Positions 26,830-55,400 of a stretch of 57,028 nucleotides of DNA are shown here, piece by piece. The translations under genes and the position numbers were made by a program. The notes below the pieces were generated by a model. It worked only from the letters and a program-made list of their open reading frames with translations. It had not been told where the DNA came from and did no database searches. Position 1 is the stretch's first letter. Each line of letters opens with the position of its first letter. Source of the DNA: a virus (Duplodnaviria > Caudoviricetes); the IMG/VR virus record IMGVR_UViG_3300034411_000354, positions 1 to 57,028 of that record; one strand, 5' to 3'.

Positions 26830-26864
26830 AACCCGACCCGCTCCGCGCGGTTCGGGTTTTTTTG
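26830..26864 (+). terminator. Intrinsic terminator-like hairpin
   Basis: AACCCGA-CCCGC...GCGG-TTCGGGTT followed by a T run. Confidence 0.7.
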
Positions 26865-26892
26865 TGTCTTCAACAACGTACGGAGAAAGCCC

Positions 26893-27003: not shown

Positions 27004-27308
27004 CTTGTGCCAGCTTGTGCCAGCTTGTGCCAGAAACAATCGCGTTTCCGGCACGACGCAAGTCATTGATATACAACACATTAATCAGATTTGTGCCGGA
27101 TGTGCCAGCTTGTGCCACCATTTTCAAGTTCGTTTTAAAAAGTTTTGGACACATGAAATTTTAGGTCTGAAATTGAAAATGAATCCAAAAATGCTGGCAC
27201 AAGTGGCACAAATGGCTACAGCCCGCATAAACACTCACTTTTTGCTGGCACAAATCGTGGCACAAACGTGGCACAAAGCTGGCACAAACCCTCTGTTTCC
27301 GGCACAAA
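27004..27308. repeat. Inverted iteron-like array (6x TGTGCC, AT-rich core, 7x GGCACA) with an IHF box; candidate replication origin
   Basis: TGTGCC at 27006, 27016, 27026, 27092, 27101, 27111. GGCACA at 27196, 27205, 27247, 27259, 27270, 27281, 27301. WATCARNNNNTTR match on the minus strand at 27059-27071. Confidence 0.8.
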
Positions 27309-27468
27309 CCCCGAACCGTGGTTCGTAAATCGTGTTTCACACCCCCTAAATCGCAGTAAACGGCCATCCGATTCGCGCTTCGCGCTCATCGGTCGGTTTT
27401 TCGGGTGTCTGGTTAATTCTGACCATTCGAATATTAGTTATAGTATTATTCCTTAGGAGGAACTCGCT

Positions 27469-27663
27469 ATGAGATATGCACCATTAAACCTGAACGTCGA
27501 GCCGTGGGACCAACTACCAGCAGAGCACGTCGCATCGGAGCTGGACTTCGGATACTTCGACCTGACGCAGGTAGCAGAAAGCATCGCAGGTGAGATCGAC
27601 ACCAACGATCTCCCGTGGAACTACAACCTCGACAGCTTCAACAAGCCAAGTGGCGCGCACTAA
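27469..27663 (+). CDS. Early acidic hypothetical protein
   Basis: 64 aa, AGGAGG RBS. Confidence 0.7.
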   Translation: MRYAPLNLNVEPWDQLPAEHVASELDFGYFDLTQVAESIAGEIDTNDLPWNYNLDSFNKPSGAH

Positions 27664-32330: not shown

Positions 32331-32511
32331 TGAATATTTTAACGAGCTTAAGAAGCTAGACACCGACCAGATACATCCTGAGTTCCATACCTATGCAACT
32401 GTATGGATCAGATCTCGGATGCCTGAGCGCTATCAAGAACTCAAAGCCGCGTTTCACAACTACGAAGGTGAGATCTACGCAGCGCAACAACACGAGGAGA
32501 TCGACTTCTAA
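32320..32511 (+). CDS. Hypothetical protein
   Basis: 63 aa, GGAGG RBS, coupled to the polymerase by TAATG. Confidence 0.7.
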   Translation: MKTNEYFNELKKLDTDQIHPEFHTYATVWIRSRMPERYQELKAAFHNYEGEIYAAQQHEEIDF

Positions 32512-34565: not shown

Positions 34566-37067
34566 ATGCAAGTCACGTTTTTGGAGGCGTCTAACGGAGT
34601 TAGCCTCAGCAAAAAGCACTCTGTTAATAATGGGTTCACCCCTTACCCCCACGTAAAGAATGTAACGTCCCATGAGCACATCATCCCTAGTGATGGTGCC
34701 GGGCTAGCTATGCTAGAACGTCTGCTGATTGACCACGGTAACGTCGGTCACTGCATGCTCAAGGGCCAACTCAAGCGTTCAATTGAAAACGAATCGCGAG
34801 CCGGAAAGACTGATCGCGTTGCGTATTCCAACCTGCTCGTACTCGATATCGACGGCGTAGTGTTGCCTCAGTGGTCTCGGCCCCTGGGCAAACTAACTCA
34901 AACAGATGTCACTAACCTAGCTAAGCTAGTGATGCGTGAGCTTCCTCTTGAGTTTCAGAACGTCAGCTATATCGCTCAAGCCTCTGCTAGCCTGGGGCTC
35001 AAGGGAGACAAAGCATCTCTCCACATCTTTATATTTCTAAAGCACGCTATGCCCGCCAAAGCAGTAAAACTGTGGCTGCAAAACGCTAATTTTGATTCTG
35101 AGTTGTTTTCAGCCCAGCTTGATCTGTCGTCTAACGGACACTCTCTGAAGTATCCGCTCGACGTAAGTGTGGCTGACAACTCCAAACTAATCTTCTGCGC
35201 TCCTCCTACGTTCGAAGATGGGACCCACGATCCGTTCAGCTCTAGTTCTGAGCGGGTCGTGCGTGTTTCTAACAACGAGGACGCATTGGATTTAGCGGGC
35301 ATGATGAGCGACATCAGCCCAGAGGTTGTGTATCAGAAATCAAACGATGCAAAAAACAGACTGCGTAAAGACCGTGGATTCCACGCAAAGAAAGAAAAGC
35401 TAACGATTGCTGCAGTGAATAACCGGACTGAAGAGATCCTTCAGAACCCTGATCGCATGTCGATCACCATCACTGATGACAACAACCCACCGTACATCCG
35501 TTGCAACGTGAATGGTGGCAACAGCAATGCATACTACTTTCTGCTTGATGACCCTACGTACATGTACAACTTCAAAGGTGAGCCAATCTGGTCTATAGAA
35601 AAAGCAGATCCAGATTTCTATACGTCAGTATTCGAGCACTTCAAAGAAGAGATCGCAGAAAACGGTAGAGCCAACTATCCGGTTGCATTGCGTGACTTCT
35701 ACACAGACACCTACTACAACGGTGTCTTTGATCCGAACCTTAACCAGTTCAGCAATGACTTCCCTCTCATGCCCTGCGCATCAGCAAGCATCGAGGGATT
35801 CATGCGATCACACGGTCGGCCAAAGCCTGACTTCATTCCAGACGCAAAAGTCGTATTCGACCCCGCGTCAAATGATGTCGCAGTCAATCTGACTAATGTG
35901 CCTTACCACATCAACATGTTCCGAAAAACACAGTACATGTTGTCAGACCGTGAGCACGAACCGCTAAGCATGGGTGACGCAGCAAAGATCGCTGACTCAT
36001 GTCCACTGATCTATAAGTTGATGACTCACATCTTAGGAGGACAGGCTTTAGAAGTTGAACACTTCACTAACTGGCTGGCCTATATATTTCAAACTAAGAA
36101 GAAGGCAATGACTGCATGGGTACTGCAGGGTGTACCAGGTACAGGTAAAGGTATCTTCTACACCAAAGTACTCAGACCGTTGTTTGGCAACGAGCACGTA
36201 CCAATGCGTGCGCTGCAAAACATTGAAGAACAGTTCAACTTGTACATGAGACAAGCCCTCTTCCTTGTCGTTGACGAGTTTCACATGGCCTCAGCTAACT
36301 CAGGCACTGTGAAAATCGCCGACAAACTCAAGAACGCCATCACAGAAAACACGATGACCATTCGTGCGATGCGTTCCAACCAAGTAGAGATGCCTAACTT
36401 TACAAACTTCATCTTTCTCACCAACCGTATGGATGCCGTGAAAATCGAGGAGGGGGATAGGCGATACAACATCGCTCCGAGACAAGAGCAAAAGTTAGAG
36501 CATGTCTACCCAGAAGTAATCGATGGCATCGATGACATATCCAAAGAGCTAGACAAGTTCGCCGCCCTACTTCGCAACTACAGAGTAAACAAGCAGCTTG
36601 TACGCACACCTATTGCCAACAATGCAAAAGCACAGATGGCCCAGGTGACGATGTCAGTCATGGAAGAGTTCTTCGCCAATGTAAAACACGGCAAGCTAAC
36701 TCTTCTGCTAGATATCCTCGACATCAGTATCAACAACGTCATGCAAGCTCAAGAGATCACAACCGCGCAACGGTTTGTAAAGCAATGGATTGCAGAGTCA
36801 CAGTGGCCCTACTCCGTTATACCAATGGAGCACCTACGTGTTGTGTACGGCGTGTTGACTGATGACCGTATATCACAACGTGAGTTCATCAAACGCGCAG
36901 AACGTAACGGATTAACTCGTGAACGTAGACGTGCTCATAACGCTCCAAGCTCCGCCAACCCAACGCGCGGTGTAGTTGTTGAGTGGCGTGTTGATGACGA
37001 GCAGTTCAACGAAATTACCGACAAATACTTCAACACTGAAGACCGTAAGCTGCTTGAAGCTGTATAA
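34566..37067 (+). CDS. Primase-helicase (N-terminal primase-like domain, C-terminal SF3/D5-DUF5906 helicase)
   Basis: LVLDID and SLH+F+FL (AEP-like motifs), Walker A GVPGTGKG, Walker B VVDE, FIFLTN, DRRY. Confidence 0.88.
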   Translation: MQVTFLEASNGVSLSKKHSVNNGFTPYPHVKNVTSHEHIIPSDGAGLAMLERLLIDHGNVGHCMLKGQLKRSIENESRAGKTDRVAYSNLLVLDIDGVVLPQWSRPLGKLTQTDVTNLAKLVMRELPLEFQNVSYIAQASASLGLKGDKASLHIFIFLKHAMPAKAVKLWLQNANFDSELFSAQLDLSSNGHSLKYPLDVSVADNSKLIFCAPPTFEDGTHDPFSSSSERVVRVSNNEDALDLAGMMSDISPEVVYQKSNDAKNRLRKDRGFHAKKEKLTIAAVNNRTEEILQNPDRMSITITDDNNPPYIRCNVNGGNSNAYYFLLDDPTYMYNFKGEPIWSIEKADPDFYTSVFEHFKEEIAENGRANYPVALRDFYTDTYYNGVFDPNLNQFSNDFPLMPCASASIEGFMRSHGRPKPDFIPDAKVVFDPASNDVAVNLTNVPYHINMFRKTQYMLSDREHEPLSMGDAAKIADSCPLIYKLMTHILGGQALEVEHFTNWLAYIFQTKKKAMTAWVLQGVPGTGKGIFYTKVLRPLFGNEHVPMRALQNIEEQFNLYMRQALFLVVDEFHMASANSGTVKIADKLKNAITENTMTIRAMRSNQVEMPNFTNFIFLTNRMDAVKIEEGDRRYNIAPRQEQKLEHVYPEVIDGIDDISKELDKFAALLRNYRVNKQLVRTPIANNAKAQMAQVTMSVMEEFFANVKHGKLTLLLDILDISINNVMQAQEITTAQRFVKQWIAESQWPYSVIPMEHLRVVYGVLTDDRISQREFIKRAERNGLTRERRRAHNAPSSANPTRGVVVEWRVDDEQFNEITDKYFNTEDRKLLEAV

Positions 37068-42344: not shown

Positions 42345-42905
42345 ATGTCAAGGGAAGACTTACCTCAGTCCGTAAAGAACCTACGGAGGATTTGGGACGC
42401 AAAGAAAGTCGAGATGCGCTTCACACAAGTTGAAGCAGCGAAGACACTCGGCTGGTCTCAGGGGGCGATTTCACATTACCTAAACAACATTACCAAACTA
42501 CAAGCACCGGCTATCATCAAGCTGGCTAACTTTCTGGATGTTGATCCCAGGGAAATTGATCCGAGTATCGAAGCTCAGCTGCCGTCCGTTGAGCGCAGAG
42601 AAATATCCTTTGACGCAAATGATGTCACTAAACCGATAAAAGAAACCATACTCAGTCGGCGTGATGACTCATCCATCATGGTTAGAATTCCAAGAAAAGA
42701 ACCTTACCTAGACTTGTTCTTCGAGCGTTACATGTATTCGTTCTGTTACGTACGGCTGATTTCCCCATCACAATTAAAAGAACCAAGCTGCTACGCAGCC
42801 CGTCTCAAAGGCAAAAAGAACTTAGAATTCTTTGATCCAAGCAGCCTACCGGCACCCAGCAAAATCCACACTCTCTGGTCGGTTGTCGCTTTTGTCTACT
42901 ACTGA
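42345..42905 (+). CDS. XRE-family HTH transcriptional regulator (repressor-like)
   Basis: TQVEAAKTLGWSQGAISHYLN...LANFLDVDPREIDP matches a cI/Cro-type HTH. No clear S24 peptidase motif in the C-terminal part. Confidence 0.88.
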   Translation: MSREDLPQSVKNLRRIWDAKKVEMRFTQVEAAKTLGWSQGAISHYLNNITKLQAPAIIKLANFLDVDPREIDPSIEAQLPSVERREISFDANDVTKPIKETILSRRDDSSIMVRIPRKEPYLDLFFERYMYSFCYVRLISPSQLKEPSCYAARLKGKKNLEFFDPSSLPAPSKIHTLWSVVAFVYY

Positions 42906-43015: not shown

Positions 43016-43234
43016 ATGAACTTACAGGATGTACTGTGCAAGCGTTACGGCCCGTTCATGGATATAAATGAACTGTCGTTACTACTAAGAATTAAGCGGC
43101 AATCGATGTACCAACAGATCTACCACGGTCGATTGCCCATCCCACATGCCAAGCTTGGCAAAAAATATTTATTCCCTACAGAAGAAGTAGCTAACTACTT
43201 CACAGATCGGCTAAATCTTCCGGGCGAAGATTAA
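43016..43234 (+). CDS. Excisionase/AlpA-like HTH protein
   Basis: +M.+.EL..LL.I...S+Y..I..G.LP....+GK..LF....V. Converges on and overlaps the integrase. Confidence 0.8.
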   Translation: MNLQDVLCKRYGPFMDINELSLLLRIKRQSMYQQIYHGRLPIPHAKLGKKYLFPTEEVANYFTDRLNLPGED

Positions 43235-44198
43235 CATAACGACTGAGCTGATCTAACGTGCGGTGACCACTCACTACCCTCACCTGTTCCACTCGCATCC
43301 CACGCTCAAACATACGACTAATTGCTTCATGACGCAGATCGTGGAACCGAAGATCTTCGATTCCCAAACGGCTTGTCATGCGCGCAAACTTGTCTGAAAT
43401 CGACTCGCTCCTCTGTACGCGGAACAGGTTATCCCCTTGCTCAGTTGTGTTTCGTGCGCGTAGAAGCGCCTCTCTCACGCCCTTTAAAAGGGGTATTTTG
43501 GCCTTACTGCGCCCGTTTTCAGCGCTCTTATCTTTGCGATAAAGATGGATCACGCCCGCCTTTTCATCAATGTCTGACCACCGCAACCGGTGGATTTCAC
43601 TTTGACGCATCGCAGATTCAACTGCGATATCGATGGCAGTGCCAATCCAATGGTCTCCCGCCTCTGCCATCAACGCTTCAAACTCTCCTGGTCCCAGACG
43701 ACGATCCCGTCGCTTACTTCCCATGATTATTTTTTTCTTTTGCAGCTCATCGATTGCCTGGTCAACGATTTTCTCTTCTGTCTTTACCCTGCTGTTCTCT
43801 ACTACCTGCTTCAAATAATACATCTGCGTCTGAAGCGTGCTCGCACAAACGCTTTTTCGACGGTGGGCTGCAAACTCAAGCGCGTCATCTAAAGTCAGGT
43901 CATGTATTGAGACGCCATCAAAATACTGGCGGATCTGGTTGAGCTGCCCAAGCTTCGGCCCAGCAACATCTAGCCCAAATCTTTCGTAGCTGTAGATTAA
44001 ATCATCGACCATCTGGCTAATGAGCACGGACCGTGATTCACGAGTATCGATCCACGAACCGTCGTCCATGCTCATTTCAATACGCCTACACCAAGCCGTT
44101 GCCGCTGCTTTAGTGCGGAAGGTTCGAGTCTGTTGGGGGTAACCTTTGCGGCGTATCTGACTGTGCCAGAGATCACCGCGCTTCCGTATGCTTGCCAT
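43200..44198 (-). CDS. int: Tyrosine integrase
   Basis: N-terminal arm-binding MASIRKRG...Q+RRKG, R of MRQSE, HDLRHEA, SGH..LD.L.RY catalytic residues. Confidence 0.95.
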   Translation of the reverse strand: MASIRKRGDLWHSQIRRKGYPQQTRTFRTKAAATAWCRRIEMSMDDGSWIDTRESRSVLISQMVDDLIYSYERFGLDVAGPKLGQLNQIRQYFDGVSIHDLTLDDALEFAAHRRKSVCASTLQTQMYYLKQVVENSRVKTEEKIVDQAIDELQKKKIIMGSKRRDRRLGPGEFEALMAEAGDHWIGTAIDIAVESAMRQSEIHRLRWSDIDEKAGVIHLYRKDKSAENGRSKAKIPLLKGVREALLRARNTTEQGDNLFRVQRSESISDKFARMTSRLGIEDLRFHDLRHEAISRMFERGMRVEQVRVVSGHRTLDQLSRYVNLRPEDLADL

Positions 44199-44270
44199 TC
44201 AATGTGCCGTCCGTGTGCCTGAGCTTTCTATAATAATTAAAAGGCCAAGCAAAACAAGCACTTAGTAAAG

Positions 44271-44290
44271 TGGCGGAGAAGGAGGGATTC
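44271..44290 (-). mobile_element. attP core identical in form to the 3' end of a tRNA-Ser
   Basis: Minus strand reads GAATCCCTCCTTCTCCGCCA, the T-loop half, acceptor strand, discriminator G and CCA typical of tRNA-Ser. It lies 73 bp upstream of int, and the T-loop breaks off at the boundary. Confidence 0.8.
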
Positions 44291-44319
44291 TAGTCGTAAA
44301 AAAACAATAAATAGTTCTA

Positions 44320-44387
44320 TATCAGTATCTTAGGTTCTATTTGTGCATATCTAGTTTTAGACAATAGAAAACCCTAACTTACTGATA
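44320..44387. promoter_or_regulatory. Two IHF consensus sites in attP
   Basis: TATCAGTATCTTA (44320-44332, +) and TATCAGTAAGTTA (44375-44387, -) both match WATCARNNNNTTR. Confidence 0.65.
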
Positions 44388-44440
44388 AAGCTAGTTATTT
44401 TATTTTCGATTATTTTTCATTGTGCCAGCGGCACACTATT

Positions 44441-44530
44441 TCAGTAGCGCTTCTTCTTCGCTGCTTTCTTCTTCTTTTTACCTTTCGACGCTGGGGCTGC
44501 GTTTAGCACGCACTGCTTACCTTTATGCAT
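44441..44530 (-). CDS. 29-aa Lys-rich peptide, last gene of the late arm
   Basis: AGGAG RBS, MHKGKQCVLNAAPASKGKKKKKAAKKKRY. Starts immediately after the chaperone stop. Confidence 0.6.
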   Translation of the reverse strand: MHKGKQCVLNAAPASKGKKKKKAAKKKRY

Positions 44531-44977
44531 TTATGCTCCTGGTTCAGATGGCCAAATAATCTCTTCAAGATCAGTAATGTTTGGGTTGTTTGCAGGGACG
44601 TCCCGCAACGCTTGTCGGTAGGTAGCCCACTCCGTTTTTACTGAGTCAGACAGAGGACTGTCCGCTACCTGTGTCCAGTCAGAGCGCCCTAATTTGTAGT
44701 CACGTAGACTACGCATCTCAGTCTCTAGCGCTTCAGTATCTAAGGCCCACTCGTAGTCAACCCAGTTGTAATATGGAGAAGGTCTTGCGGGTTTATTTTT
44801 TACCCATGCATGCCGCCAGTACCATTCGTTTATAACGACTGTGTCTGATATCTCGTACGGAAAACTATGCGCTGTCTCTGTACCTACCTGCTGCCCTTCG
44901 CTCCACATGTTGTCATGCGAAGGGTGGACGGTTGACACGACCTCACCGTTCTCAGCAACTAATGCGAACTTATTCAT
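44531..44977 (-). CDS. Tail fibre assembly chaperone
   Basis: C-terminal R..RD..L..SDWTQ..DSPL....W.TYRQALRD+P....WP..P signature. ATG 44977 is coupled to the upstream gene. Confidence 0.85.
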   Translation of the reverse strand: MNKFALVAENGEVVSTVHPSHDNMWSEGQQVGTETAHSFPYEISDTVVINEWYWRHAWVKNKPARPSPYYNWVDYEWALDTEALETEMRSLRDYKLGRSDWTQVADSPLSDSVKTEWATYRQALRDVPANNPNITDLEEIIWPSEPGA

Positions 44978-45729
44978 ACAACATACCCCACGATTTCTGT
45001 TCGGTGCCCTTCCCATACCTTGGTATAGGTCGTTGGTTCATAACCTGCTTGCCCACCAGCGGTTACGATATGAGTTTTAATCACTGCATTTGGGTAGTCC
45101 CAACGTAGCGTTCGTGACTTAGCTTGATATTCACGATCAGCTGATGGCCCAAAAATCCTGTAGTAATAAGAATAGTAGCCCATAGCTAAACCATAGATAT
45201 CTTCTAGGTCTGTGCTATCAACGCCCGTATACCATGTACCCGCTCCAGAACTAGAGGCTGTTACATTGTGGTGCCGTGCTGCTTGGACACGGTAAGTAGG
45301 TTTCTCTGTGGTAAAACTCAGCGTGCCATCAGACTGGTACACATTCAGGCCCACGTTGGGTGGGTTTTGACCGCTAATAACGCTGTCGTCGAATTCACTA
45401 CAGCGTTGGATAATGGCGTAGTCCGCAGCTTCCGTAGCCAAAAGACTAGACCCGTATGCAAAGTTCATAAAGCACTTACGAACACGGGTTCCGTTGTTAG
45501 TCGTATCGGTGTAATAAGCGTACAGCGTGTAGTGTGTTGAGGTGGTTGGGTTATTAGGTTTTGCTACCACTAGTATATCGTCAGGGTAACTATTAGGAAT
45601 CGTCACAGAGTTAATCGAACTGTTGCCGCTTGCCGCGACAGTCCCCGTAGCAAGCACCTGAAAACCCTGGGTTGTGTCGTCAATCTGAGTAAACCCAGAC
45701 TCGTTTTCTACCCTAATACCGTATGTCAT
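44974..45729 (-). CDS. Tail-associated protein
   Basis: 251 aa, YG+.+.N..G..QID and G+.VY..DG...F motifs seen in genes downstream of J-like fibres. Confidence 0.7.
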   Translation of the reverse strand: MTYGIRVENESGFTQIDDTTQGFQVLATGTVAASGNSSINSVTIPNSYPDDILVVAKPNNPTTSTHYTLYAYYTDTTNNGTRVRKCFMNFAYGSSLLATEAADYAIIQRCSEFDDSVISGQNPPNVGLNVYQSDGTLSFTTEKPTYRVQAARHHNVTASSSGAGTWYTGVDSTDLEDIYGLAMGYYSYYYRIFGPSADREYQAKSRTLRWDYPNAVIKTHIVTAGGQAGYEPTTYTKVWEGHRTEIVGYVV

Positions 45730-46403
45730 TATTGGTTCAACTTAAATACGTTAACGCGCCAAGTAATCGTAGCGCCAGAACTGCTGACAACGAACTGGCC
45801 AGAGGATGAGAGTACTTTTAAGTCAATCTCCACAGGAGTTACATCAATCCCCCAATCGCCGTTAGTAATGTCATAACCCCCGCCCACTGAGATCGTAGTG
45901 CTAGAGCTAGATGTTACGGTGCCGGAATACGATGCGTAGTGCATGATCTGCTTGTCTTTGGTATCAAGCCTGGGCAGATTTGAATTACTGGGATGCCACA
46001 CCTGCAGGCCCATATCCGGTGTGCCGGAACTGCCGCTGAAGGTGCCACTAATCGTAAACTCAGCCTGCTGGTGGTCCGTTGAAGGGCCACCATACTGGTG
46101 CCCGCCAGGCAGGTAGTACACGAGCACCCCATTACACGAGTAATTCGAATTCGTGGTCGTCGGAGTAATCGTAAACGAGCCACGGTTCTTAACACTTGTC
46201 GGGGAGATTGTGCAGTTGACCAGGGTAAAGACGATGTCATTGTCTTCGTTATCCAAGTAATTGGTCTGTTGTGTGCTAGTAGCTTCCTGATCAAAGCTCG
46301 CTGTTATGGTGTCGCCAACCGTCAGATTTCTAGTAGCTGTCGTTGTACCGCCGTAAGGCAGTGCTGCCGATGTAATGGATAAATTTTCTGTGTAGGTAGT
46401 CAT
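45729..46403 (-). CDS. Tail-associated protein
   Basis: 224 aa, Thr/Ser beta-rich, GLQVW motif. Coupled to the fibre gene. Confidence 0.7.
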   Translation of the reverse strand: MTTYTENLSITSAALPYGGTTTATRNLTVGDTITASFDQEATSTQQTNYLDNEDNDIVFTLVNCTISPTSVKNRGSFTITPTTTNSNYSCNGVLVYYLPGGHQYGGPSTDHQQAEFTISGTFSGSSGTPDMGLQVWHPSNSNLPRLDTKDKQIMHYASYSGTVTSSSSTTISVGGGYDITNGDWGIDVTPVEIDLKVLSSSGQFVVSSSGATITWRVNVFKLNQ

Positions 46404-49400
46404 TACAGATTACCTAGCTTGATGCGGACCGTGCCGCTTGAATCGAAGACCTTGATTGAATCAGCTTTAATCTCCATTCGCGCGCCAGTAGCAGCAGACT
46501 TCAAATCAATGCCCGACGTAACACCTTCGATGTTTACGTTCGCCGCATTAAGCGTACCGGTGCTTATCTTGCCCGCTGATAGGTTCGCAATCTTAGCGTC
46601 ATCAATAGCCGCATTACCTATCTTCGCGGTGTCAATCGTACCGTTCGCAATGAACGCATCAGTGATATAGACACCAGGAGTTACGGTCACGCCGTTGTTT
46701 GTATATGAGCTGGTCACTACGCTAAATGGGACCTGCGCAGTGCCGGTGTCGCTAGCGTCCTTGAGGATCGCGAACCGGTCAGCGTTAACAATAAACTCAC
46801 TGACGATGTTGCCGGAGCCCGTGGTTGTACTGGCCAAGCCGTAACCAGCGACCGCGCCGTTGTTGTCGATCTTTACAGTGTACTGGGCTTCTAATCCGTT
46901 AACAGATTGTGCGTTCGCACTCACTGTAGCTGTCTGGCCATCAACCGCAGATTGAACGGTGTTAACCTGCTTGGCTATCGCCTGAACAGAGTTATCTCCA
47001 AGCTTTGCCTGTCGAGCGCCCAGCAGTACCGTCTCGTCATCGTCGCCACCTTCCTGTGCAATCAAATGGAATGGTGCCGTGCCGACAAATCGATAAGGAC
47101 CGCCGCCCGTGTTTATGTTTGTGTTGCCAGTATTGGAGCCTTGCGAGACAAACAAGGGAGCTGATGTCGATGCGGCAGACAGATCCTCTCGATACAGGAC
47201 AGTGCCATCCGCCTTCATCACGGTCACTTCACAAGGCTCTACCGCAACAATTCGATAGTTAGAAAGATTTGGTTCAGGCCATACATACAGGTCTGACATC
47301 GCCTCTCTGGGCAAGCCAAATTCTGCGTCACCACCAGCACCATCCGCATGACCGTAATACGCGATGTGCATGTCTTCATCGTCGGTTGCGTAGTAGCGAG
47401 CGTTACCGTTCGTTATGCGTGTTGGAGTGCCGCTAGTCTTTGAGTTTGCGTAAAAAACAATCTCACCTGCCGCCTCATAGTTAGAGACTGCTTCACCGTT
47501 GGTCATTGGAATCATGAGCATGTTGTCGCCGCCACCAGTTGGGCGGAATATGCCAGTGATTCTAGCGTCTGACTTAAAGATAAAGGTAGCGGCTGCGTCG
47601 TTAGCGCTTAGATCTACGTCCGCTTCGTAGTGGTAGTACCCACCAGCCGGAATAATGATCGTGTCATCTACCGTGGATGATGACTCAATGAAGTCAGCGG
47701 CACCGTTGGCGTCGTAGTACACATCAACCTGTGCCTCACCATACGGTGCGAAAAGGTAGATATCATAGGGGTTGTAGCGTGAGCCGCTGTTAGCAAGAAG
47801 CGTCGAGCTGAAGTTTGCTGGCGCTCCCATAACACCGTCAGCATGCTTACAAATGATAGGACCAGAGGCGAATACCCTCCAAGGACCATCACCTGACTGC
47901 GATGTCTCTGAAGGTATGTTGTAGTTGGTGTAGGCGTCAGCGTTTTCCTTAACGGTGTACTGCGTACCATCAGTCATCTTCTCAATGTAGATGTTGACAC
48001 CATCTTCCAGCGCAACCACGTAAGCCGGAGCGCCAGCTCCATCGATGCTTCGAAGATACCAGTCGTTACTGACATAGTGACCATTGAGGCCAGAGGTGAC
48101 TCGTGCCTCTAATAGCCGCACATCTAACGCAGCTGCCGCCGCACTTGAAGCCGCATTTGAAGCCGAGGTAGCCGCTCCCGACGCAGAATTAGCAGACGCC
48201 GTTGCTGAACCAGCCGCGTTACCTGCAGAAGCAGACGACAAACCGGCTTGCGTGGTTGCAGTATTCTCAGAACCCGCCGCGTTCGACGCTGAATTAGCCG
48301 CGTTCGACGCAAAGGTAGAGGCCTCGCCTGCTTTAGTTGTAGCAATGCCCGCTTGCGACGTAGCCGTGGTCGCTTCTTGTCCAGCTGTATTAGCCGAGGC
48401 GGAAGCCTGACCGGCAGATGTACTAGCGGCAGACGCTGATATGTCAGCCAACTCCTGAGCAGTAGAGCCTCTATCGCTAGTCTCAACAACAGTGAGGTCG
48501 TGATGGCCTCGGACAAAGACCAACCCATCGAAAAAGATTTCTTTGCCAGAGCCGCCTGTGTGGCTACGTACATCGATTGATATATTAGCCCCTGGAGTGC
48601 TGCTAGCCGTGCCTTGACCAGTTACAAACTGCCATGCGTTTGTGGAGGTTACGAAGCCAACGGCCCAGCCGCCATCGTACGGGAACTGCAGAGAAATATT
48701 GCCGCTAAAGTTTTTGTAAACCCAAACACCCCAGGTGAATTTCTCACCTGTGATCTGCTCTATATCCGTCTGATAAATAATTGGGCTACTGTCACTATAG
48801 AAGTTGCTGGAGCTAAGAGTTTTAGCACTGTGTGTACCAAACTTCTTCTGCGTAGTACTGCGCTCAAGGAACGTAGTGTTCCACCCGCCTCTTAAATTGG
48901 CTTCCTCAAGCCGTGAATCCACAACAACATTATCCAGAACCATGCTGTCCCGAGCCGCTTCTGCATTAGTGCGTGCTGTAGCTGCTAGACCCGCTTGCGT
49001 GGTTGCAGTGGTCGATGAGCCAGCCGCGTTTGACGCTGAATTAGCCGCGTTCGACGCAAAGGTAGAGGCGTCTCCTGCTTTTGTAGTTGCAATCCCCGCT
49101 TGCGTCGTAGCCGTAGTCGCTTCTTGTCCCGCTGTATTAGCCGAGGCGGAAGCCTGGCCCGCAGACGTATTAGCAGCAGACGCTGAGTCGCTAGACTTGT
49201 GGGCTGATCGAACAGCTGAGTCATCTACTTCTACTGTCGTTAGATCTACTTCACCCCTAACAACAATAACGCCATCAACATAGACCGCGTTGTCTGTTGT
49301 GGTCCCGATAGGGGCGGATCGAAGTTCGAGTCTTAGACCGTATAAAGGGGGCCACGATCCTGCAGTGCCCGTTTGAGTAAGGAATACCCAAGAGTTGCGG

Positions 49401-52400
49401 ACAGCCGTAGAAGCTGTTCCCCAACCGCCGTCGCCTGCAAAACCAAATGACTCAGACGTAGTGCCAGACCCGTCGATGTAAACCCACATCCCCCAAGTAA
49501 GCTTGTCGCCTGTCGCGATATCGGGGAATGAGTCCAAAAGAGCTGTCTCAAAAATATCAACGCTCGATGTGCCGCTCGCGGGGATTTTAAGGCTATGCGT
49601 ACCAAGCTTAAAATACGTGGTTGATGTGGCGCAGTTGCTGCTCTGATCAGTCCACTGCGGTTTAACGCCACCAGGGAACGTGCCGTCAAAGGCATAGTTC
49701 TGGTAAACGATAGCGTCACGCGCGTCCTCAGCATCAGACGCTGCAGTGGCGGCTAGACCTGCTTGAGTACTGGCCGTGGACGAGGACCCCGCAGCGTTGG
49801 ACGCGGACTGCTGAGCTTGACTCGCGAACCCCGAAGCGTCACTCGCGAACCCTGATGCGTCACCCGCTTTCGTGCTCGCGATACCCGCTTGTGTGGTGGC
49901 AGTAGACGCAAAATTGCCAGCGTCACTTTCACTTGCGGATGCATTACCTTCAGAAACAAGGGCTGCGGCTGCAGAGACAGCTGCAGCATCTGCTTTTATC
50001 TCCGCCTTAATCGCCTCAGTAACATCGATGACTTCCATCGACTGTATTGATGGCTGGCCGTCGGTAAGGCCGCCAGCGTTATGACGTATTTGGAAGTTTA
50101 CGAATGCTAAATCAGGTTCATTGTTAGTACCTGAATTGGGTGGGATAATCGCCCACGCCCTACCACCACTTTGCAGATCAGGTGCGTTTTCAGTTACTAA
50201 ATCAAACGCTTCTAGCTCCGCATCTGTGTAGTCACTACCGCCAAAGAAAACGGACAACTCATAAACGCCATCAGCGACAGTTTTTGTTACGTTAACGGGC
50301 TGGTAGTTGTTTAAATCAGGTGAACTAGTAATCCTAGTGCCATCTGCTTTCCAACCATTAATTCCGAGGCTTAACCTTACCCCAGTGCCAATCGTGGGAC
50401 CGTCGTTAAGAACGCGGGATATTACTCGCACGAGATAAACTTTGTCAGAGCTATACGGCTGTACTCGTCGCGGCGATATCGAATCATTCAGACCAAGAGT
50501 GGGTACGTAGGCGTTACCGAACTCAGCGTCATTAGTAACGAAAAAACTAGCGGTGGCATTACCAGCACCAGCAAATCGATTATCGGTGGAATATAAATTG
50601 TGGCTCTGCTGGGTCTGTTGCCAGCTTGTAGGGTTGATAAATTGGATCTCGCCATTCGCTGCTGTCTCTACTAACACAGCATCTTTTAAGTCGTCAGTGT
50701 CAGACCTGGCAGTAGCCGCCAACGTAGCCTGAGATGAAGCCGAAGACGCAGAACCAGCCGCGTTAGTTTCTGATTGAGCTGCAGCTGACTCACTTGCCTG
50801 TGCGTTTGTTTCAGCCGTCTCAGCATCATTTTTTGCAGTAGTAGCAAGTGTTGCCTGCGCGGCGGCAGTGTTAGCAGAACCCTGAGCATTCGACTCACTT
50901 GTCGCTGCATTACCGGCTGAGGTTGAAGCCTCTCCAGCCTTGGTAGTAGCAACACCTGCCTGATTGCTCGCGGTAGTAGCGAAACCACCTGCCGCACCCT
51001 CGCTTGCGGATGCGTTAGCCGCAGATGTCTGTGATGCTGCAGCGCTTATTGCGCTCTCTACTGTGCCTTTATTAGTCTCAACAATTGAGCCGTTAGACGA
51101 TAGGAACTGCACATCGTCAATGTAGCCACGGAAGTTACCACCAGCCGCCCATGTGACGTAATTAACAAGAACATCGGTGCCGATGTTGCCAGGCTGATCA
51201 TCAATTAGGATAAGGTCAATTCGAACAAATGCTGTATTAGCAGGCGCAGTGCCCTCATCAGAGACGTAGTCAAACCAGGTCTGCTGTGGCGCTCTTGAAG
51301 ACCCACTTACCCATGAACCGTTTGCCTGGTTGTATTCAGAAGTAGCCGAAGGTACAGCGGTTTGACTAAGCAGCGCGCCGTCTTCGTCGTACCAGTTGTA
51401 GATGATGAAAACGTCGTCCTCATCAACCCACTCTGGATCACGGTTATAGGGAGCTGGGACAGTGCCCGCCAGATTTACCGCCATATCGACGTTAAATTTC
51501 TGGGACGGTTCAGCAATAAAGTACTTACTTAACCGCATCCAGTCTCCGGTACTGCCAGAGTCGGTTACATGCGTACCAAAACTTTGTGTTGAGGAAAAAT
51601 CACCACTGCTGTTGACGACGGTAGAAACAACACCAACATCGTTAGGGGCATCAGCTCGTTGGCCGTCGCAGTCCCAGCCAGTTGGCCAAGTGTCTACCGA
51701 TGTAGATGCTTGATCAGCCTCAAAGCCCGCATTCACAACACCGCCATCGACCAGGTTCATACGCTCTTGGATCGCGACCGCTACACCTTCAGAAGTTGCT
51801 GCGGATGAACTAGATCCAGCCGCACTTGTCGCGCTACCTGCAGCAGCGTTTTGATACGTCAGGGCGTTAGCTTCTGAGGAAGCGGCGTCTGACGCGCTGC
51901 TCGCTGCATTGCTCTCACTACTCGATGCGGCTGACTCACTACTCGCGGCATTCGTCTCACTTTGTGCCGCGTTGGCAGCTGAGGTGGAAGCCTGGCCTGC
52001 TTTAGTAGTAGCAATACCAGCCTGGTTAGTTGCGGTAGTGGCAAAACCGCCAGCCGCGCCTTCGCTTGCGGAGGCATTACCTTCAGAGACAAGAGCTGCG
52101 GCTGCAGAAACAGCTGCTGCATCTGCTTTTATCTCAGCGAGGACGGCCTCAGTTATATCGAACACTTCGAACGATTTAACCGCTATTGAGCCGTCGGAGT
52201 GATTTGATGCGTTTTGACGAATATGGAAGCCGATAGACTTTGCCGGAGTATCTGAACCGTTTGCAGAAGATGTGGAATTCACAGTCAGCAGACCACTGAA
52301 AGTATTGTTAACCTGCGTGGTCTTGTTGTCGTTAACAATATCTAAACCGTTAATAACAGCGCTGGTATAGTCATCGCCATGAAATACCATGACGAATTCG

Positions 52401-55400
52401 GTCTCACCGTCAGCCTGGTTAGGTTGTTGCTGACCTGGCTGAAGATTCTCACGCAGTGTTAAGCCGTCACCACCTCGCGTAGTTGCCCCTAAATATACGT
52501 TCGTAGCGCTGCTGGCATAGGTGGATACAGTGCTCTCCAGAGCGACACGATAAATAGCACGAAGCATATAAACTTTATCTGGCCCGTAGGGGTACGACTT
52601 TCTCGGCCCGAAAGTGTCATTGCCCCTATTCCCGCCAAAGTTATATGCATCGCCAAACACGCTGTCTGTTGTGGTGAAGTCCGTTTCTAATATTTGGCCC
52701 GTGTTAATAAACCGGTCATCTGAAGAATCCAGATTCTTATCAAACGGGTTAAAAGCCCAGCTCTCAACAATAGGTGTAACTCTTGATGGCCCAGACGCCG
52801 CTAACTCGACCAAGGTTTCGGCGAGCGCGTCCTCTGCTGCAGACTGCGCTGACGCTGCTAACGTGCTACTTGAGGACGCTGATGACTCAGATCCAGCAGC
52901 ATTTGATTCTGATGTTGCAGCATTAGTCTCGGAAACTAATGCGGCGGCTTCACTGGCCGAGGCATCGGATGCGCTTTGTGCTGCCAGGCCTTCACTTGCA
53001 AGAGCCGCTGAAGCAGAGTTGCCAGCCGCTGTTTGGCTTGCTGTAGCACTCTGTTGCGACAAAAGCGCCGCATCAGCAGAGGCGTCAGCTTTTTCACTCG
53101 CCGTACTTGCAGCGTCACTAGCCTCAACAACAGTTAGATCGTGGTGGCCGCGCACGAGAATCAGTCCATCTATGAAGACTTGTCGCGTTCCAGAGCCACC
53201 CATGTGGCCGCGTATGTCCATCTCTAGGTTCACAGCCATCGTAGAGAGCGCAGTGCCTTGGCCAGTTACAAACTGCCATGCGTTTGTGGCAGTGACCGTA
53301 CCCGCAGCCCAACCACCAAACTGCTGGAATTGGATTGTAATATCGGTGTTCCAGTTCTTATAAACCCAAGCGCCCCAGGTGAATTTCTCACCTGAAATTA
53401 TGGGTATATCAGTGTAGTAAAAAATTGGGTACTGGTTGGTAAAGACGCCAGAAGTGGATCCTAAGCTATGCGTACCAAACTTTGACTGCCCGCTAGAGCG
53501 CTGATAAAGATTTGTGGAGTCCCAGCCGCCTATTAAAGAGCTTTCAGATAGCCTTGAATCAACAATCAAATTTTCAAGGACCATCGCGTCTCTAGCAGAT
53601 TCGGCATCCGCTCTTGCAGACGCTGCGAGACCTGCTTCCGTTGAAGCATTACTAGCAGAACCTGAAGCATTCGACTCTGACGACGCGGCGTTACTTGCTG
53701 AGACTGCTGCTTCACCAGCTTTGGTGGTAGCAATACCAGCCTGAGAACTGGCGACACCAGCGGAGGAGTTGGCAGCGCTTTGACTCGCAGTAGCACTCTG
53801 CTGTGATACCAGAGCAGCGTCAGCGAAATCTGCGCTATTGTGAGCTGCCCGCACTGCTGAATCATCAACTTCTACAGACGTTAGATCGACTTCACCTTTT
53901 ACGATTATGACGCCATCAATGTACGTCGCTACATCATTAGATTCGAGTGGGTTCGATCGGAACTCTAACTTCACGTCAAGCGTATTTGCGGCCTGGTTGC
54001 CCATCGTTCCTGTAGCAGTAAGGAACACCCACTGGTTGCGCGTGCTGGTAGATGCTGTAGCCCAACCGCCATCGCCAGCTAGACCGTAGCTTTCCGTACT
54101 AGTGCCAGACCCATCAATATAGACCCACATCCCCCACGTATACTTGTCACCAATTACAGACTCGGGGAAAAAGTCGAGCTGGTCACTATAGAAGATATCT
54201 GTACTTCCAGTCTGGCCGGAGGTAACTTTTAAACTGTTAGACCCAAACTTAGCTTGAGTCGAAGATATTGAAGCGTCGGCACTTTGTGAAACCCATATTG
54301 GCTTTGTAGTGGTGGGGAAGGTCCCGTCAAACGCAAAGTTCTGATACACAATGCCATCGCGCGCAGATTCAGCAGCCGTCTGTGCGGAGGCCGCCAGTGT
54401 TGAGCTTTGAGAAGCGGTAGATGCGTGTCCAGCAGCGGTAACAACAGATGCAGCAGCAGCCTGTTCAGACGCTAGCGCATTTGTCTCAGCGGTCTCAGCG
54501 TCGGTCTTTGCAGTAGTAGCTAGACCTGCTTGCGTACTTGCAGTAGAAGCAAAACCGGACGCATTCGACTCACTTTGCGCAGCAGCCTGTTCAGACGCTA
54601 GCGCATTAGTCTCAGCCGTTTCAGCTCCACCTCTGGCGGTAGTAGCTAGACCCGCTTGCGTACTTGCAGTAGACGCATGCCCCAGCGCGGTAGAGGCAGA
54701 ACCTGCCGCTGCACCTTGACTAACGGACGCTGCAGTCGCACTGATTGCTGCCTCCATCGGGCCTTGGGAAATTTCTTGGATAGAACCGTCGGTGCATAGG
54801 AACTGCACATCGTCGATGCGGCCCATCCAGTTGCCACCCGTCCACGTTGTGTAGTCACCGCGATTACTTACTGGAATCACCTGACCATTATAGTCAACGC
54901 CAACGATTTCAATTTTTGCGTATACGGAGTTGGCCGGTACGGTTACTGCTGCTGGCTCGAAGTCGATCCAAGTTTCGTTTACTGCTGCGCCAAGCGCCCC
55001 TGACGTAGTGATGTTGTTAGCAACAGCGTACAAATGTCCTGCACTCTGAGAGTACAATGACGATAGGAACACGCCCTCAGAATCATAGAATGACCACACG
55101 CAAATTGTGTCGTCTTCACCGACCCAATAGCTGTCCTGGGGGTCTGTAGTGGTCGGGGTAATGTTCTCGTAGTCATAGTTCCAAACACGGCACTTCGTTT
55201 TTAGTGTCTTACCTGGCTCAACCAAGAAGTGTTTGTAATGTGTTACCCAGTGCCCGGTGCTGTATACCGTGGGGCTTATAATACCGTAAGACAGCTCCGA
55301 GCCGAACTCGCTAGTCGTACCTACATCCGTTACAAAACCTAAATTAGTGATCGAGTTTTGTGCTTCTACTGTCCAGCCTGCGGGAGCTCCAACGCCTGCT

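What the first reader, a model, noticed from the sequence alone, without database searches (positions are those of the whole stretch)
44162..44435. The same TGTGCC hexamer plus IHF boxes also flanks attP: possible shared grammar linking integration and replication
Seen: TGTGCC at 44162, 44203 and 44214 (left of the core; the last two are 11 bp apart) and TGTGCC/GGCACA as an inverted pair at 44421 and 44430 (right of the core), plus two IHF boxes. These are the positions where integrase arm-type sites would be expected. The identical hexamer with IHF defines the array 17 kb away at 27.0-27.3 kb. Inference, in three alternatives: (a) Int binds both loci, so it could silence the origin or use the array as a second recombination or titration site; (b) the primase-helicase binds both, making a bipartite origin like P4 ori1/crr that integration would rearrange; (c) coincidence. 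Either (a) or (b) would be an unusual way to couple the lysis-lysogeny decision to replication. This is my best candidate for an undescribed system here.
Basis: partly seen in the sequence, partly recalled or inferred. Interest (0 to 1): 0.8.

Follow-up and report, generated by a model that had tools for sequence, protein, structure and literature searches.

The report
Integrase arm sites, not a replication link
The repeated TGTGCC words beside this phage's integration site are most likely the docking sites of its own integrase, and their identity with the repeat word of an array 17 kb away looks like coincidence, so this is an ordinary though neatly built attachment site.

Summary
TGTGCC lies at 44162, 44203, 44214, 44421 and, inverted, 44430, with two IHF-consensus boxes between them. 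That is 5 hits in 274 bp against 0.16 expected; 0 of 1000 simulated genomes reached 5.

The window is a complete 57-kb temperate phage. The region 44199-44530 is its attP. The core, 44271-44290, is identical to the last 20 nt of a tRNA-Ser gene.

Four of the five hexamers form a conserved layout: a direct pair 11 bp apart just upstream of int, and a palindrome 218 bp away. In 22 of 29 related phages both elements carry the same 6-mer. That word differs between phages (TGTGCC, TGTGAC, GGTGTC, TCCGTC, TGCGTC and others) and follows integrase residues 12, 14 and 24, in a predicted beta-sheet N-terminal domain. It does not follow primase-helicase or seven other proteins. These are best read as integrase arm-type sites. 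The fifth hexamer (44162) is int coding sequence.

Only 2 of 11 genomes use one word at both loci (1.0 expected, P 0.27). Relatives with TGTGCC at att have TGTAGCA arrays. The protein that binds the array stays unidentified.

The parts
43200..44198 (-). Tyrosine integrase gene (332 aa). Codons 1-46 (44061-44198) encode the predicted arm-binding domain.
   Evidence: Pfam Phage_integrase E 1.4e-20 and PHROG 1. Lambda Int is the best solved relative by sequence. The AlphaFold2 model has strands 2-7, 10-15 and 23-27 and a helix at 30-45.
44203..44219 (+). Int-proximal arm: two TGTGCC copies in direct repeat (44203-44208 and 44214-44219), 11 bp apart, 5-21 bp upstream of the int ATG and 51 bp from the core.
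   Evidence: An exact 6-mer direct repeat at 11 bp occupies this position in 24 of 29 relatives. The same is seen in 27 of 29 tRNA-int spacers of distant chromosomal relatives, against 2.8 expected.
44271..44290 (-). attP core: 20 nt identical to the 3' end (T-loop to CCA) of a tRNA-Ser(GCU) gene.
   Evidence: 20 of 20 match in L282, with identity ending at both edges. All five genome matches at up to 2 mismatches are tRNA-Ser 3' ends.
44320..44332 (+). IHF-consensus box 1 (TATCAGTATCTTA), 29 bp from the core.
   Evidence: A + match sits 49 nt after the core start wherever one is found in relatives.
44375..44387 (-). IHF-consensus box 2 (TATCAGTAAGTTA), inverted relative to box 1.
   Evidence: A - match sits 104 nt after the core start in relatives. 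Both boxes are exact in 12 of 29 loci.
44421..44435 (.). Int-distal arm: palindrome TGTGCC-AGC-GGCACA, 130 bp from the core.
   Evidence: It carries the same 6-mer as the direct pair in 22 of 29 relatives, against 2 of 670 in a cross-locus control. By subtracting the positions listed, the spacing from the first direct copy is 218 bp in 17 loci, 217 in 3 and 228 in 2.
44162..44167 (+). The fifth TGTGCC, inside int (codons W11-H12-S13). Not part of the site set.
43016..43234 (+). HTH_17 protein of 72 aa, convergent with int. Candidate excisionase (directionality factor).
   Evidence: Pfam HTH_17 E 2.5e-8. The role is inferred from family and position only.
27006..27306 (.). Separate element: 13 iterons (consensus TTGTGCCAGC) in two opposed blocks around an AT-rich centre, with one IHF box, between the packaging/late genes and the early operon. 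Candidate origin or packaging site; its binding protein is unknown.
   Evidence: Present at the same place in 44 related loci, each with its own iteron word. TerL lies at 23181-24824.

Best explanation
Region 44199-44530 is the attP of a lambda-type (heterobivalent) tyrosine integrase that integrates into the 3' end of a tRNA-Ser gene. Four TGTGCC hexamers are its arm-type sites: a direct pair 11 bp apart just upstream of int, and a palindromic pair on the far side of the core behind two IHF boxes.

The small N-terminal domain of Int (three beta strands and a helix) reads the hexamer, mainly through residues 12, 14 and 16 on strand 2 and residue 24 on strand 3. IHF-induced bends fold the distal arm back, so that the four N-domains of an Int tetramer can hold both arms while the catalytic domains act on the core.

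After integration the order would be tRNA-Ser, direct pair, int. Int bound to the direct pair probably also represses its own gene, as shown for KplE1 IntS and ICEMlSymR7A IntS.

Shown here: the positions, the conservation, the covariation of site word with Int residues, the core identity and the predicted fold. Inferred: binding, looping and autoregulation.

The identity of the hexamer with the core of the 27-kb iteron is a coincidence between two independently evolving sets of short TGT-anchored words.
For: 1. Layout. 22 of 29 Int-bearing relatives have an exact 6-mer repeated at 11 bp within 75 nt of the int ATG and the same 6-mer as an inverted pair distally. Using one locus's word on another locus gives 2 of 670.

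2. The word changes between phages: TGTGCC 7, TGTGAC 10, TGCGTC 4, GGTGTC 2, TCCGTC 2, GGGGCC 2, GGTGCC 1, GGTACA 1. The roughly 195 bp between the two elements does not follow the word (AUC 0.57; identity 0.70 for same-word pairs and 0.68 for different-word pairs). Block linkage therefore does not explain the match.

3. The Int columns that follow the word best are residues 14, 12 and 24 (same-minus-different identity 0.76, 0.76, 0.73). Residues 1-30 give AUC 0.88, against 0.59-0.62 for the rest of Int. No residue quadruple 12/14/16/24 is shared by two word classes in 29 sequences.

4. On a tree of Int residues 60-332 the word changes at least 15 times.

5. Eight other proteins, among them primase-helicase (AUC 0.49), HTH_17 and the cI-like repressor, have no column above 0.49.

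6. The model places residues 12-16 and 24 on strands of a beta-beta-beta-alpha domain, pLDDT 85-93.

7. The core matches 20 of 20 to a tRNA-Ser 3' end.

8. Among chromosomal Int relatives of at most 34% identity, 29 of 60 loci scanned have a same-strand tRNA ending 70-160 bp upstream of int. Of those 29, 27 carry a 6-mer repeated at exactly 11 bp, against 2.8 expected; three of them use GGCACA.

9. Against coupling. Only 2 of 11 genomes use the same word at att and array (WIN and L029); permutation mean 1.01, P 0.27. L009 and L040 have TGTGCC at att but TGTAGCA arrays, and L060 has a GTGTGCCA array but no TGTGCC at att.

10. Precedent. PMC2951348 (passages read) and PMC11963761 (passages read) describe int promoters that overlap arm-type sites, with negative autoregulation by the integrase.
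Against: No binding was measured.

The fold searches with the N-domain model did not return the lambda or Tn916 Int N-domains. The best DNA-binding hit was the AP2/GCC-box domain at Z 4.9, which is within noise.

Seven of 29 loci fail the exact-6-mer test. L038 has a TGTGCC direct pair but a TCCGCC palindrome. L054 has a direct instead of an inverted distal pair. L068, L031, L051, L060 and L061 have imperfect repeats. Word labels for those loci were assigned by eye, and L051 was left out of the covariation counts.

The direct pair and Int codons 12-24 lie within about 100 bp of each other, so their covariation alone could be linkage. The argument rests on the distal palindrome.

No sigma-70-like promoter or terminator was found in 44100-44600, so autoregulation is by analogy.

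No integrated copy of this phage clade was found, so no attL or attR junction was seen.

Both word families begin with TGT, which I cannot explain.

The 11 paired genomes are not all independent: G006 and G016 look alike, and L009 and L040 share an array type.
Confidence: 0.78

Rival explanations
1. Lineage-specific cross-talk. In this phage the array iteron TTGTGCCAGC contains the whole arm word, so Int also occupies the 13 iterons. That would titrate Int, or silence whatever the array does, and so link integration to replication or packaging.
For: The arm word needs little more than (G/T)TGTGCC, judged by eye from the flanks of TGTGCC-type relatives. By eye, 12 of the 13 array copies read T-TGTGCC. 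A second lineage, L029, also shares TGTGAC between att and array.
Against: The match is absent in 9 of 11 genomes and occurs at the chance rate. The array keeps its architecture in 44 loci whatever the word. Chromosomal elements of the same Int family use GGCACA pairs, and nothing links those to an array. So any cross-talk is not a conserved design.
Confidence: 0.07
2. A bipartite origin like P4 ori1/crr. The primase-helicase, or another array-binding protein, also binds the att hexamers, and integration splits the origin.
For: The 833-aa protein has DUF5906/VapE-like primase-helicase domains and a weak match to an 'origin binding' PHROG. By eye, its C-terminal 110 residues are the most variable part and look like a basic helix followed by a strand.
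Against: The att word does not follow primase-helicase: AUC 0.49, best column 0.35. In five genomes (the window and four relatives) the array word has a single cluster, with none at att and no second locus. No 40-residue stretch of primase-helicase follows the array word above background either (AUC 0.59-0.73). Only 2 isolated columns of 479 variable ones were pure within iteron groups.
Confidence: 0.03
3. The hexamers are operators of another small regulator, either the HTH_17 protein or the cI-like repressor. That regulator would control int and the end of the late operon, and Int would not read them.
For: A palindrome with a 3-4 nt spacer is typical of a dimeric helix-turn-helix protein. 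The direct pair overlaps the int translation start region. HTH_17 has the second-highest column score, 0.49.
Against: Neither protein has a column approaching those of Int (0.49 and 0.30 against 0.76). The three top Int columns fall on two predicted DNA-facing strands. The same 11-bp pair is found next to distant chromosomal integrases, but I did not examine the neighbouring genes of those loci.
Confidence: 0.07
4. The distal palindrome is mainly a hairpin at the 3' end of the late operon, acting as a terminator or RNA stabiliser, and its likeness to the direct pair is secondary.
For: It lies a few bases after the stop of the last small ORF on the - strand, and it folds as a 6-bp hairpin. Changes in relatives are symmetric in the two halves.
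Against: No U tract follows it and the terminator scan finds nothing. The fold of the 3' region is no better than shuffles, z 0.06. A hairpin role does not explain why its stem equals the direct-repeat word in 22 of 29 phages, or the helically phased spacing of 217/218/228 bp.
Confidence: 0.05

Closest known systems
Phage lambda Int / attP (heterobivalent tyrosine recombinase with arm-type sites and IHF sites)
   Same: The catalytic domain is related: lambda Int chains are the best solved matches by sequence (E 1e-7) and among the best by fold. Both have a separate small N-terminal domain, short arm words unlike the core on both sides of it, and IHF-consensus boxes in the long arm.
   Different: Here attP lies upstream of int rather than downstream. 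There are four arm sites, arranged as one direct pair and one palindrome, where lambda has five (the lambda arrangement is recalled, not tested). The core is a tRNA 3' end. The N-domain shows no sequence match to Pfam arm-binding families.
KplE1 (CPS-53) IntS / attL of E. coli, the 'tRNA then integrase' arrangement (PMC2951348)
   Same: In the integrated state the integrase gene follows the tRNA in the same orientation, and the P' arm-type sites overlap the int promoter region. The paper shows negative autoregulation and finds the layout common (passages read). The 29 chromosomal relatives have this layout.
   Different: Autoregulation is not shown here and no promoter was predicted. The Int proteins were not compared with IntS.
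ICEMlSymR7A IntS / attP (PMC11963761)
   Same: A 283-bp attP sits directly upstream of intS with several short arm-type motifs, and IntS represses its own promoter (passages read).
   Different: That attP has five sites with a 10-bp consensus TGKTGGTATC. The element is an ICE, not a phage, and its RDF gene is encoded far from int.
Satellite phage P4 ori1/crr (bipartite origin bound by the alpha primase-helicase)
   Same: The window encodes a primase-helicase of the same broad kind, and it has an iteron array.
   Different: The defining feature, the same iteron at two distant loci, is not conserved here. P4 details are recalled, not tested.

Membership tests
attP of a heterobivalent (lambda-type) tyrosine integrase | Tyrosine recombinase catalytic domain encoded next to the site | tested here: met
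   PF00589 E 1.4e-20. Invariant R198, H286, R289, H312 and Y321 in 18 sequences. Lambda Int hits.
attP of a heterobivalent (lambda-type) tyrosine integrase | Separate N-terminal arm-binding domain (three-stranded sheet plus helix) | tested here: inconclusive
   The model shows strands 2-7, 10-15 and 23-27 and a helix at 30-46, pLDDT 85. Foldseek found nothing at E <= 0.001. VIA-align gave the AP2/GCC-box domain at Z 4.9, within noise, and lambda and Tn916 N-domains were not listed. No Pfam arm-domain match.
attP of a heterobivalent (lambda-type) tyrosine integrase | Arm-type sites: a repeated short word, unlike the core, on both sides of it | tested here: met
   Direct pair plus palindrome of one word in 22 of 29 relatives, control 2 of 670. 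The word covaries with Int residues 12, 14 and 24.
attP of a heterobivalent (lambda-type) tyrosine integrase | Core sequence shared with a bacterial attB | tested here: met
   20 of 20 identity to the 3' end of a tRNA-Ser(GCU) gene, with identity stopping at both edges. Only 5 genomes were searched, and no attL/attR junction of this clade was seen.
attP of a heterobivalent (lambda-type) tyrosine integrase | Binding sites for a bending protein (IHF) in the arms | tested here: met
   Two consensus matches at 44320 and 44375, at fixed offsets in relatives, both exact in 12 of 29. This is consensus and conservation only.
attP of a heterobivalent (lambda-type) tyrosine integrase | Int actually binds the arm words and needs them for recombination | not testable with these tools
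   Needs EMSA or footprinting and recombination assays.
Shared-motif coupling of att and origin (P4 ori1/crr-like bipartite site, or Int-bound array) | The same repeated word at both loci, changing together across relatives | tested here: not met
   2 of 11 genomes share the word; permutation mean 1.01, P 0.27.
Shared-motif coupling of att and origin (P4 ori1/crr-like bipartite site, or Int-bound array) | One protein whose sequence follows both words | tested here: not met
   Int follows the att word only. Primase-helicase follows neither. The HMM of the Int N-domain finds no second copy in the window's six frames; next best E is 0.76.
Iteron-type replication origin (for the 27-kb array) | Iterons flanking an AT-rich stretch, plus an identified initiator that reads them | tested here: inconclusive
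   The iteron blocks, AT-rich centre and IHF box are present and conserved. No protein follows the iteron word. A packaging site is not excluded, because TerL lies 2 kb away.

The most novel reading that the evidence does not exclude
In this phage, and separately in the L029 lineage, the arm word of Int has come to equal the core of the array iteron. The 13 iterons would then act as extra Int docking sites, so that Int levels feed back on replication or packaging, or the array buffers free Int.

A broader reading, also not excluded, is that the repeated recoding of the arm word (at least 15 switches among 29 integrases that all target tRNA-Ser-like cores) is selected to keep co-resident phages' integration machineries from interfering with each other.
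Probability: 0.08. Interest if true: 0.65.

Novelty: new member of a known kind. Interest (0 to 1): 0.3.

Why it matters
The proposed new system, one grammar linking lysogenic integration to replication, is not there, so the region should not be followed up as a coupling device.

What remains is a well-resolved natural example of an attP whose arm word and integrase N-domain have been recoded together many times in otherwise similar phages. It yields a small residue-to-word table: residue 14 is Q with TGTG--, E with T(C/G)CGTC, and I with GGTG--. That table could guide the design of integrases with separate arm specificities, and it helps annotate att sites in uncultured marine phages.

It also shows that the 27-kb iteron array is a conserved feature of this phage group with a fast-changing word and no known reader. 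That is the more open question.

Tried and rejected
- **DNA search for relatives.** DNA similarity searches of the att and array regions against GenBank phages found nothing. The protein search gave only about 30% relatives (KPP25, phiR18).
- **Integrated relatives.** The Int scan of bacterial genomes found only relatives at or below 34% identity, so there is no prophage junction for this clade.
- **Search for the array reader.** All five attempts were negative.
  - No column in 14 early proteins was pure within the iteron groups. With three groups only, there were 4 isolated columns in 12 proteins.
  - ORF clusters around the array in 44 loci showed high association only for frames that overlap the array itself, or for clusters present in few loci.
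  - By eye, the N-terminus of the 186-aa gene upstream of TerL does not follow the word.
  - The cI-like repressor does not follow it either: AUC 0.63, and no clustering by eye in its identity matrix.
  - Sliding windows along primase-helicase gave AUC 0.59-0.73 throughout.
- **Second Int N-like domain.** An HMM search of the window found none.
- **Fold of the N-domain.** Foldseek gave no match at E <= 0.001. VIA-align gave only Z values up to 5.6, and the lambda and Tn916 N-domains were not listed.
- **Promoter and terminator scan of 44100-44600.** Nothing found.
- **RNA fold of the late-operon 3' end.** Not better than shuffles.
- **Extending the primase data.** A search in five more contigs found the gene in only one.
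- **Rows dropped from the att-versus-array count.**
  - L072 and L064: only weak 5-6 copy ATCGATG repeats, and homology to the array is doubtful. Both would count as 'different'.
  - L041: same array as L040, but no int in the locus.
- **Literature.** Searches for co-variation of arm sites with the Int N-domain, and for inverted arm pairs, listed no paper on this (listings only). Supplements were not seen.
Full report
**What the window is**

The window is a complete 57,028-bp virus record with terminal repeats. It is a temperate phage. Its annotated genes are:
- a tyrosine integrase at 43200-44198 (-);
- a 72-aa HTH_17 protein at 43016-43234 (+);
- a cI-like HTH_3 protein at 42345-42905;
- a family A DNA polymerase at 32511-34319;
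- an 833-aa primase-helicase at 34566-37067;
- a tail-fibre assembly gene at 44531-45016 (-);
- a large terminase at 23181-24824 (-).

GenBank phages hold no DNA relative. The nearest cultured phages, KPP25 and phiR18, share about 30% of the primase-helicase. IMG/VR holds at least 383 contigs with a relative of that protein at 54-83% identity, and 80 of them were fetched.

**The observation**

The cluster exceeds chance. At the background rate of 0.585 per kb, 0.16 hits are expected in 274 bp (P 7.7e-7). None of 1000 simulated genomes had 5 hits in any 275 bp.

The hexamer at 44162 is int coding sequence (W11-H12-S13). It is not conserved among TGTGCC-type relatives (3 of 7). A TGTGCC also turns up in the int codons of four TGTGAC-type relatives. 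I set it aside.

**What the region is**

On the minus strand, 44290-44271 reads as the last 20 nt of a tRNA. In five marine bacterial genomes searched with up to 2 mismatches, all five matches were 3' ends of tRNA-Ser genes. One, tRNA-Ser(GCU) of a Porticoccaceae MAG, matched 20 of 20, and identity stopped exactly at both edges. That is the attP core. The host hint is weak because only five genomes were searched.

Thirty of the 80 related loci encode an Int homologue. One of them (L035) holds only a 44-residue fragment. With the window added, 30 att regions were lined up on the int start codon, and they showed one architecture. In order it is: the int ATG; two direct copies of a 6-7 nt word 11 bp apart; about 50-70 bp; the tRNA-like core; an IHF-consensus box 49 nt after the core start; a second, inverted box 104 nt after it; then a palindrome of the same word with a 1-4 nt spacer.

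An automatic test gave the following:
- It was run on 29 regions. L045 was too short.
- An exact 6-mer repeated at 11 bp was found in 24 of 29.
- The same 6-mer occurred as a distal inverted pair in 22 of 29.
- Using one locus's word on another locus with a different word succeeded in 2 of 670 pairs.
- By subtracting the listed positions, the distance from the first direct copy to the palindrome is 218 bp in 17 loci, 217 in 3 and 228 in 2. That is one extra helical turn in the last two.

**The word is not fixed**

Among 29 loci the word is TGTGCC in 7, TGTGAC in 10, TGCGTC in 4, GGTGTC in 2, TCCGTC in 2, GGGGCC in 2, GGTGCC in 1 and GGTACA in 1. L051 was left unassigned, and seven labels were set by eye.

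The two elements change together, while the roughly 195 bp between them does not follow the word. Identity there is 0.70 for same-word pairs and 0.68 for different-word pairs, AUC 0.57. Pairs such as L013 (TCCGTC) and L014 (TGTGAC) are 86% identical in between. A simple block exchange therefore does not explain the match. Something reads the word at both places.

**Who reads it**

In the Int alignment the three columns that best separate same-word from different-word pairs are residues 14, 12 and 24 (0.76, 0.76, 0.73). Residues 6, 3, 16 and 23 follow. Residues 1-30 give AUC 0.88, and the rest of Int gives 0.59-0.62.

The quadruple at positions 12/14/16/24 reads as follows:

| Quadruple | Arm word |
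|---|---|
| HQRT or KQRT | TGTGCC |
| QQRS or QQRT | TGTGAC |
| QIKQ | GGTGTC |
| QIKR | GGTGCC |
| Y/F-E-R-N/R | TGCGTC |
| FERN | TCCGTC |
| MRKS | GGTACA |
| RAKT | GGGGCC |

No quadruple is shared by two classes. On a tree built from Int residues 60-332 the word changes at least 15 times among 29 sequences. The window's nearest neighbours on that tree, L010 and L024, use GGTGTC and TGCGTC.

Eight other proteins of the same loci have no column above 0.49. Primase-helicase has AUC 0.49, HTH_17 has a top column of 0.49, and the cI-like protein has 0.30.

AlphaFold2 models of whole Int and of residues 1-61 give strands 2-7, 10-15 and 23-27 and a helix at 30-46, with pLDDT 85-93. A disordered linker then leads to the core-binding and catalytic domains. 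Residues 12, 14 and 16 alternate along strand 2 and residue 24 lies on strand 3, as expected for a sheet laid in the major groove. That last point is an inference.

Whole Int matches Tn1549 and lambda integrases by fold and lambda Int by sequence. The small domain alone found no convincing solved relative. The AP2/GCC-box domain scored Z 4.9, which is within noise.

**The design is family-wide**

Bacterial genomes hold only distant relatives of this Int, at or below 34% identity. Of 60 such loci scanned, 29 have a tRNA gene on the same strand ending 70-160 bp before int. In 27 of those 29 the spacer holds an exact 6-mer repeated at exactly 11 bp, against 2.8 expected from shuffles. The words include GTCACA, GGGACA, GCGACA, GGTACA and, in three loci, GGCACA, which is the complement of TGTGCC.

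This is the 'tRNA then integrase' layout. For it, KplE1 IntS and ICEMlSymR7A IntS were shown to bind arm sites overlapping their own promoter and to repress it (PMC2951348; PMC11963761; passages read in both). I infer the same here, although the promoter scan found nothing.

**The array and the proposed link**

The 27.0-27.3 kb array is real and conserved. In 44 loci found through the gene upstream of the terminase, a roughly 300-bp array of 7-14 iterons in two opposed blocks lies 1.5-2.2 kb from that gene. An IHF-consensus box lies inside 20 of the 37 compact arrays. The iteron word varies between phages: TGTGCCA, TGTGACA, TGTGACG, TGTGTCAG, TGTGCGC, TGTAGCAG, TGTGTAC, TGTGCAG, TGTGCAC, TGTGTAA, TTGGTCCAA and TCGTGCCA.

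For 11 genomes I could read both loci:

| Genome | att word | Array word | Same word? |
|---|---|---|---|
| Window | TGTGCC | TTGTGCCA | yes |
| L029 | TGTGAC | GTGTGACG | yes |
| L009 | TGTGCC | TGTAGCA | no |
| L040 | TGTGCC | TGTAGCA | no |
| L060 | GGGGCC | GTGTGCCA | no |
| G002 | TGTGAC | TGTGTCA | no |
| G004 | TGTGAC | TGTGTACC | no |
| G003 | TGTGAC | GTGTAGC | no |
| G006 | TGCGTC | TGTAGCA | no |
| G017 | TGTGAC | TGTGTCAG | no |
| G016 | TGCGTC | TGTAGCAG | no |

Two matches of 11 equal the permutation expectation (mean 1.01, P 0.27). In the four relatives' genomes checked, the array word has a single cluster and none at att.

**What reads the array is unresolved**

No conserved early protein follows the iteron word. 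Neither does any part of primase-helicase or any ORF family around the array. The window also has no second domain like the Int N-terminus.

The basic, variable C-terminal 110 residues of primase-helicase are a lead only. Because the terminase genes are adjacent, a packaging site is as open as an origin.

**Exceptions and limits**
- L038 has a TGTGCC direct pair and matching Int residues, but a TCCGCC palindrome. It looks like a recombinant across the core.
- L054 has a direct distal pair instead of an inverted one.
- Five loci have imperfect repeats.
- No binding, looping or autoregulation was measured.
- No integrated copy of this clade was seen.
- Both word families start with TGT, and I cannot say why.
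- Supplements of the two papers were not available.

**Verdict**

The sequence pattern is real and functional, but it is an ordinary kind of thing: the arm-type sites of an attP. The link to the array is best explained by chance.

Noticed in passing
window 27006-27306; loci L195-L272: The iteron array is conserved in position and architecture in 44 related loci: two opposed blocks, an AT-rich centre, often an IHF box. Its word differs from phage to phage, mostly TGTG plus three variable bases. No protein tested follows the word, so its reader and its role (origin or packaging site) are open.
   Followed up: partly
L038:12685-13085 (att region): A hybrid att. The direct pair and Int residues are of the TGTGCC type, but the distal palindrome is TTCCGCCA-gt-GGCGGA. 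That differs from the TCCGTC type by one symmetric change in each half. It suggests exchange between phages across the shared core.
   Followed up: no
window 44441-44530 (-): By eye, a 29-codon lysine-rich ORF starts at the stop of the tail-fibre assembly gene (TAAATG) and ends just before the palindrome. In several relatives (L009, L077, L042, L029, L038) the corresponding place reads, by eye and on the reverse strand, like a gene ending in an HNH-like motif (HHKDGNPRNN).
   Followed up: no
window 46403-57028 (-): An open frame of at least 3541 codons runs off the window end. Since the record has terminal repeats, it may continue at the other end. It was not examined.
   Followed up: no
window 44162-44167: The codons for Int residues W11-H12-S13, which include a specificity residue, themselves spell the arm word on the coding strand. 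This is seen in 3 of 7 TGTGCC-type phages and is probably a coding accident.
   Followed up: partly
L117-L182 (bacterial loci): Distant integrases of this family across Proteobacteria sit 70-160 bp downstream of tRNA genes of many kinds (Arg, Ala, Val, Ser, Pro, Lys, Thr, Glu, His). In 27 of 29 the spacer has a 6-mer repeated at exactly 11 bp. This signature could serve to find att arms automatically.
   Followed up: partly
window 26830-26865 and 27370-27400: By eye, two hairpins each followed by a T run on the + strand bracket the array. The second lies just before the early operon (RBS and ATG at 27469). A similar sequence is seen by eye in L083.
   Followed up: no
window 36700-37067 (primase-helicase residues about 715-833): By eye, the C-terminal part is the most variable stretch of the protein. 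It is basic, with a helix-like SQREFxKRxxRNG segment followed by RGVxxxW. Three of four TGTAGC-array phages read QKR where the others read RKR. This is a weak hint that it could read the iterons.
   Followed up: partly
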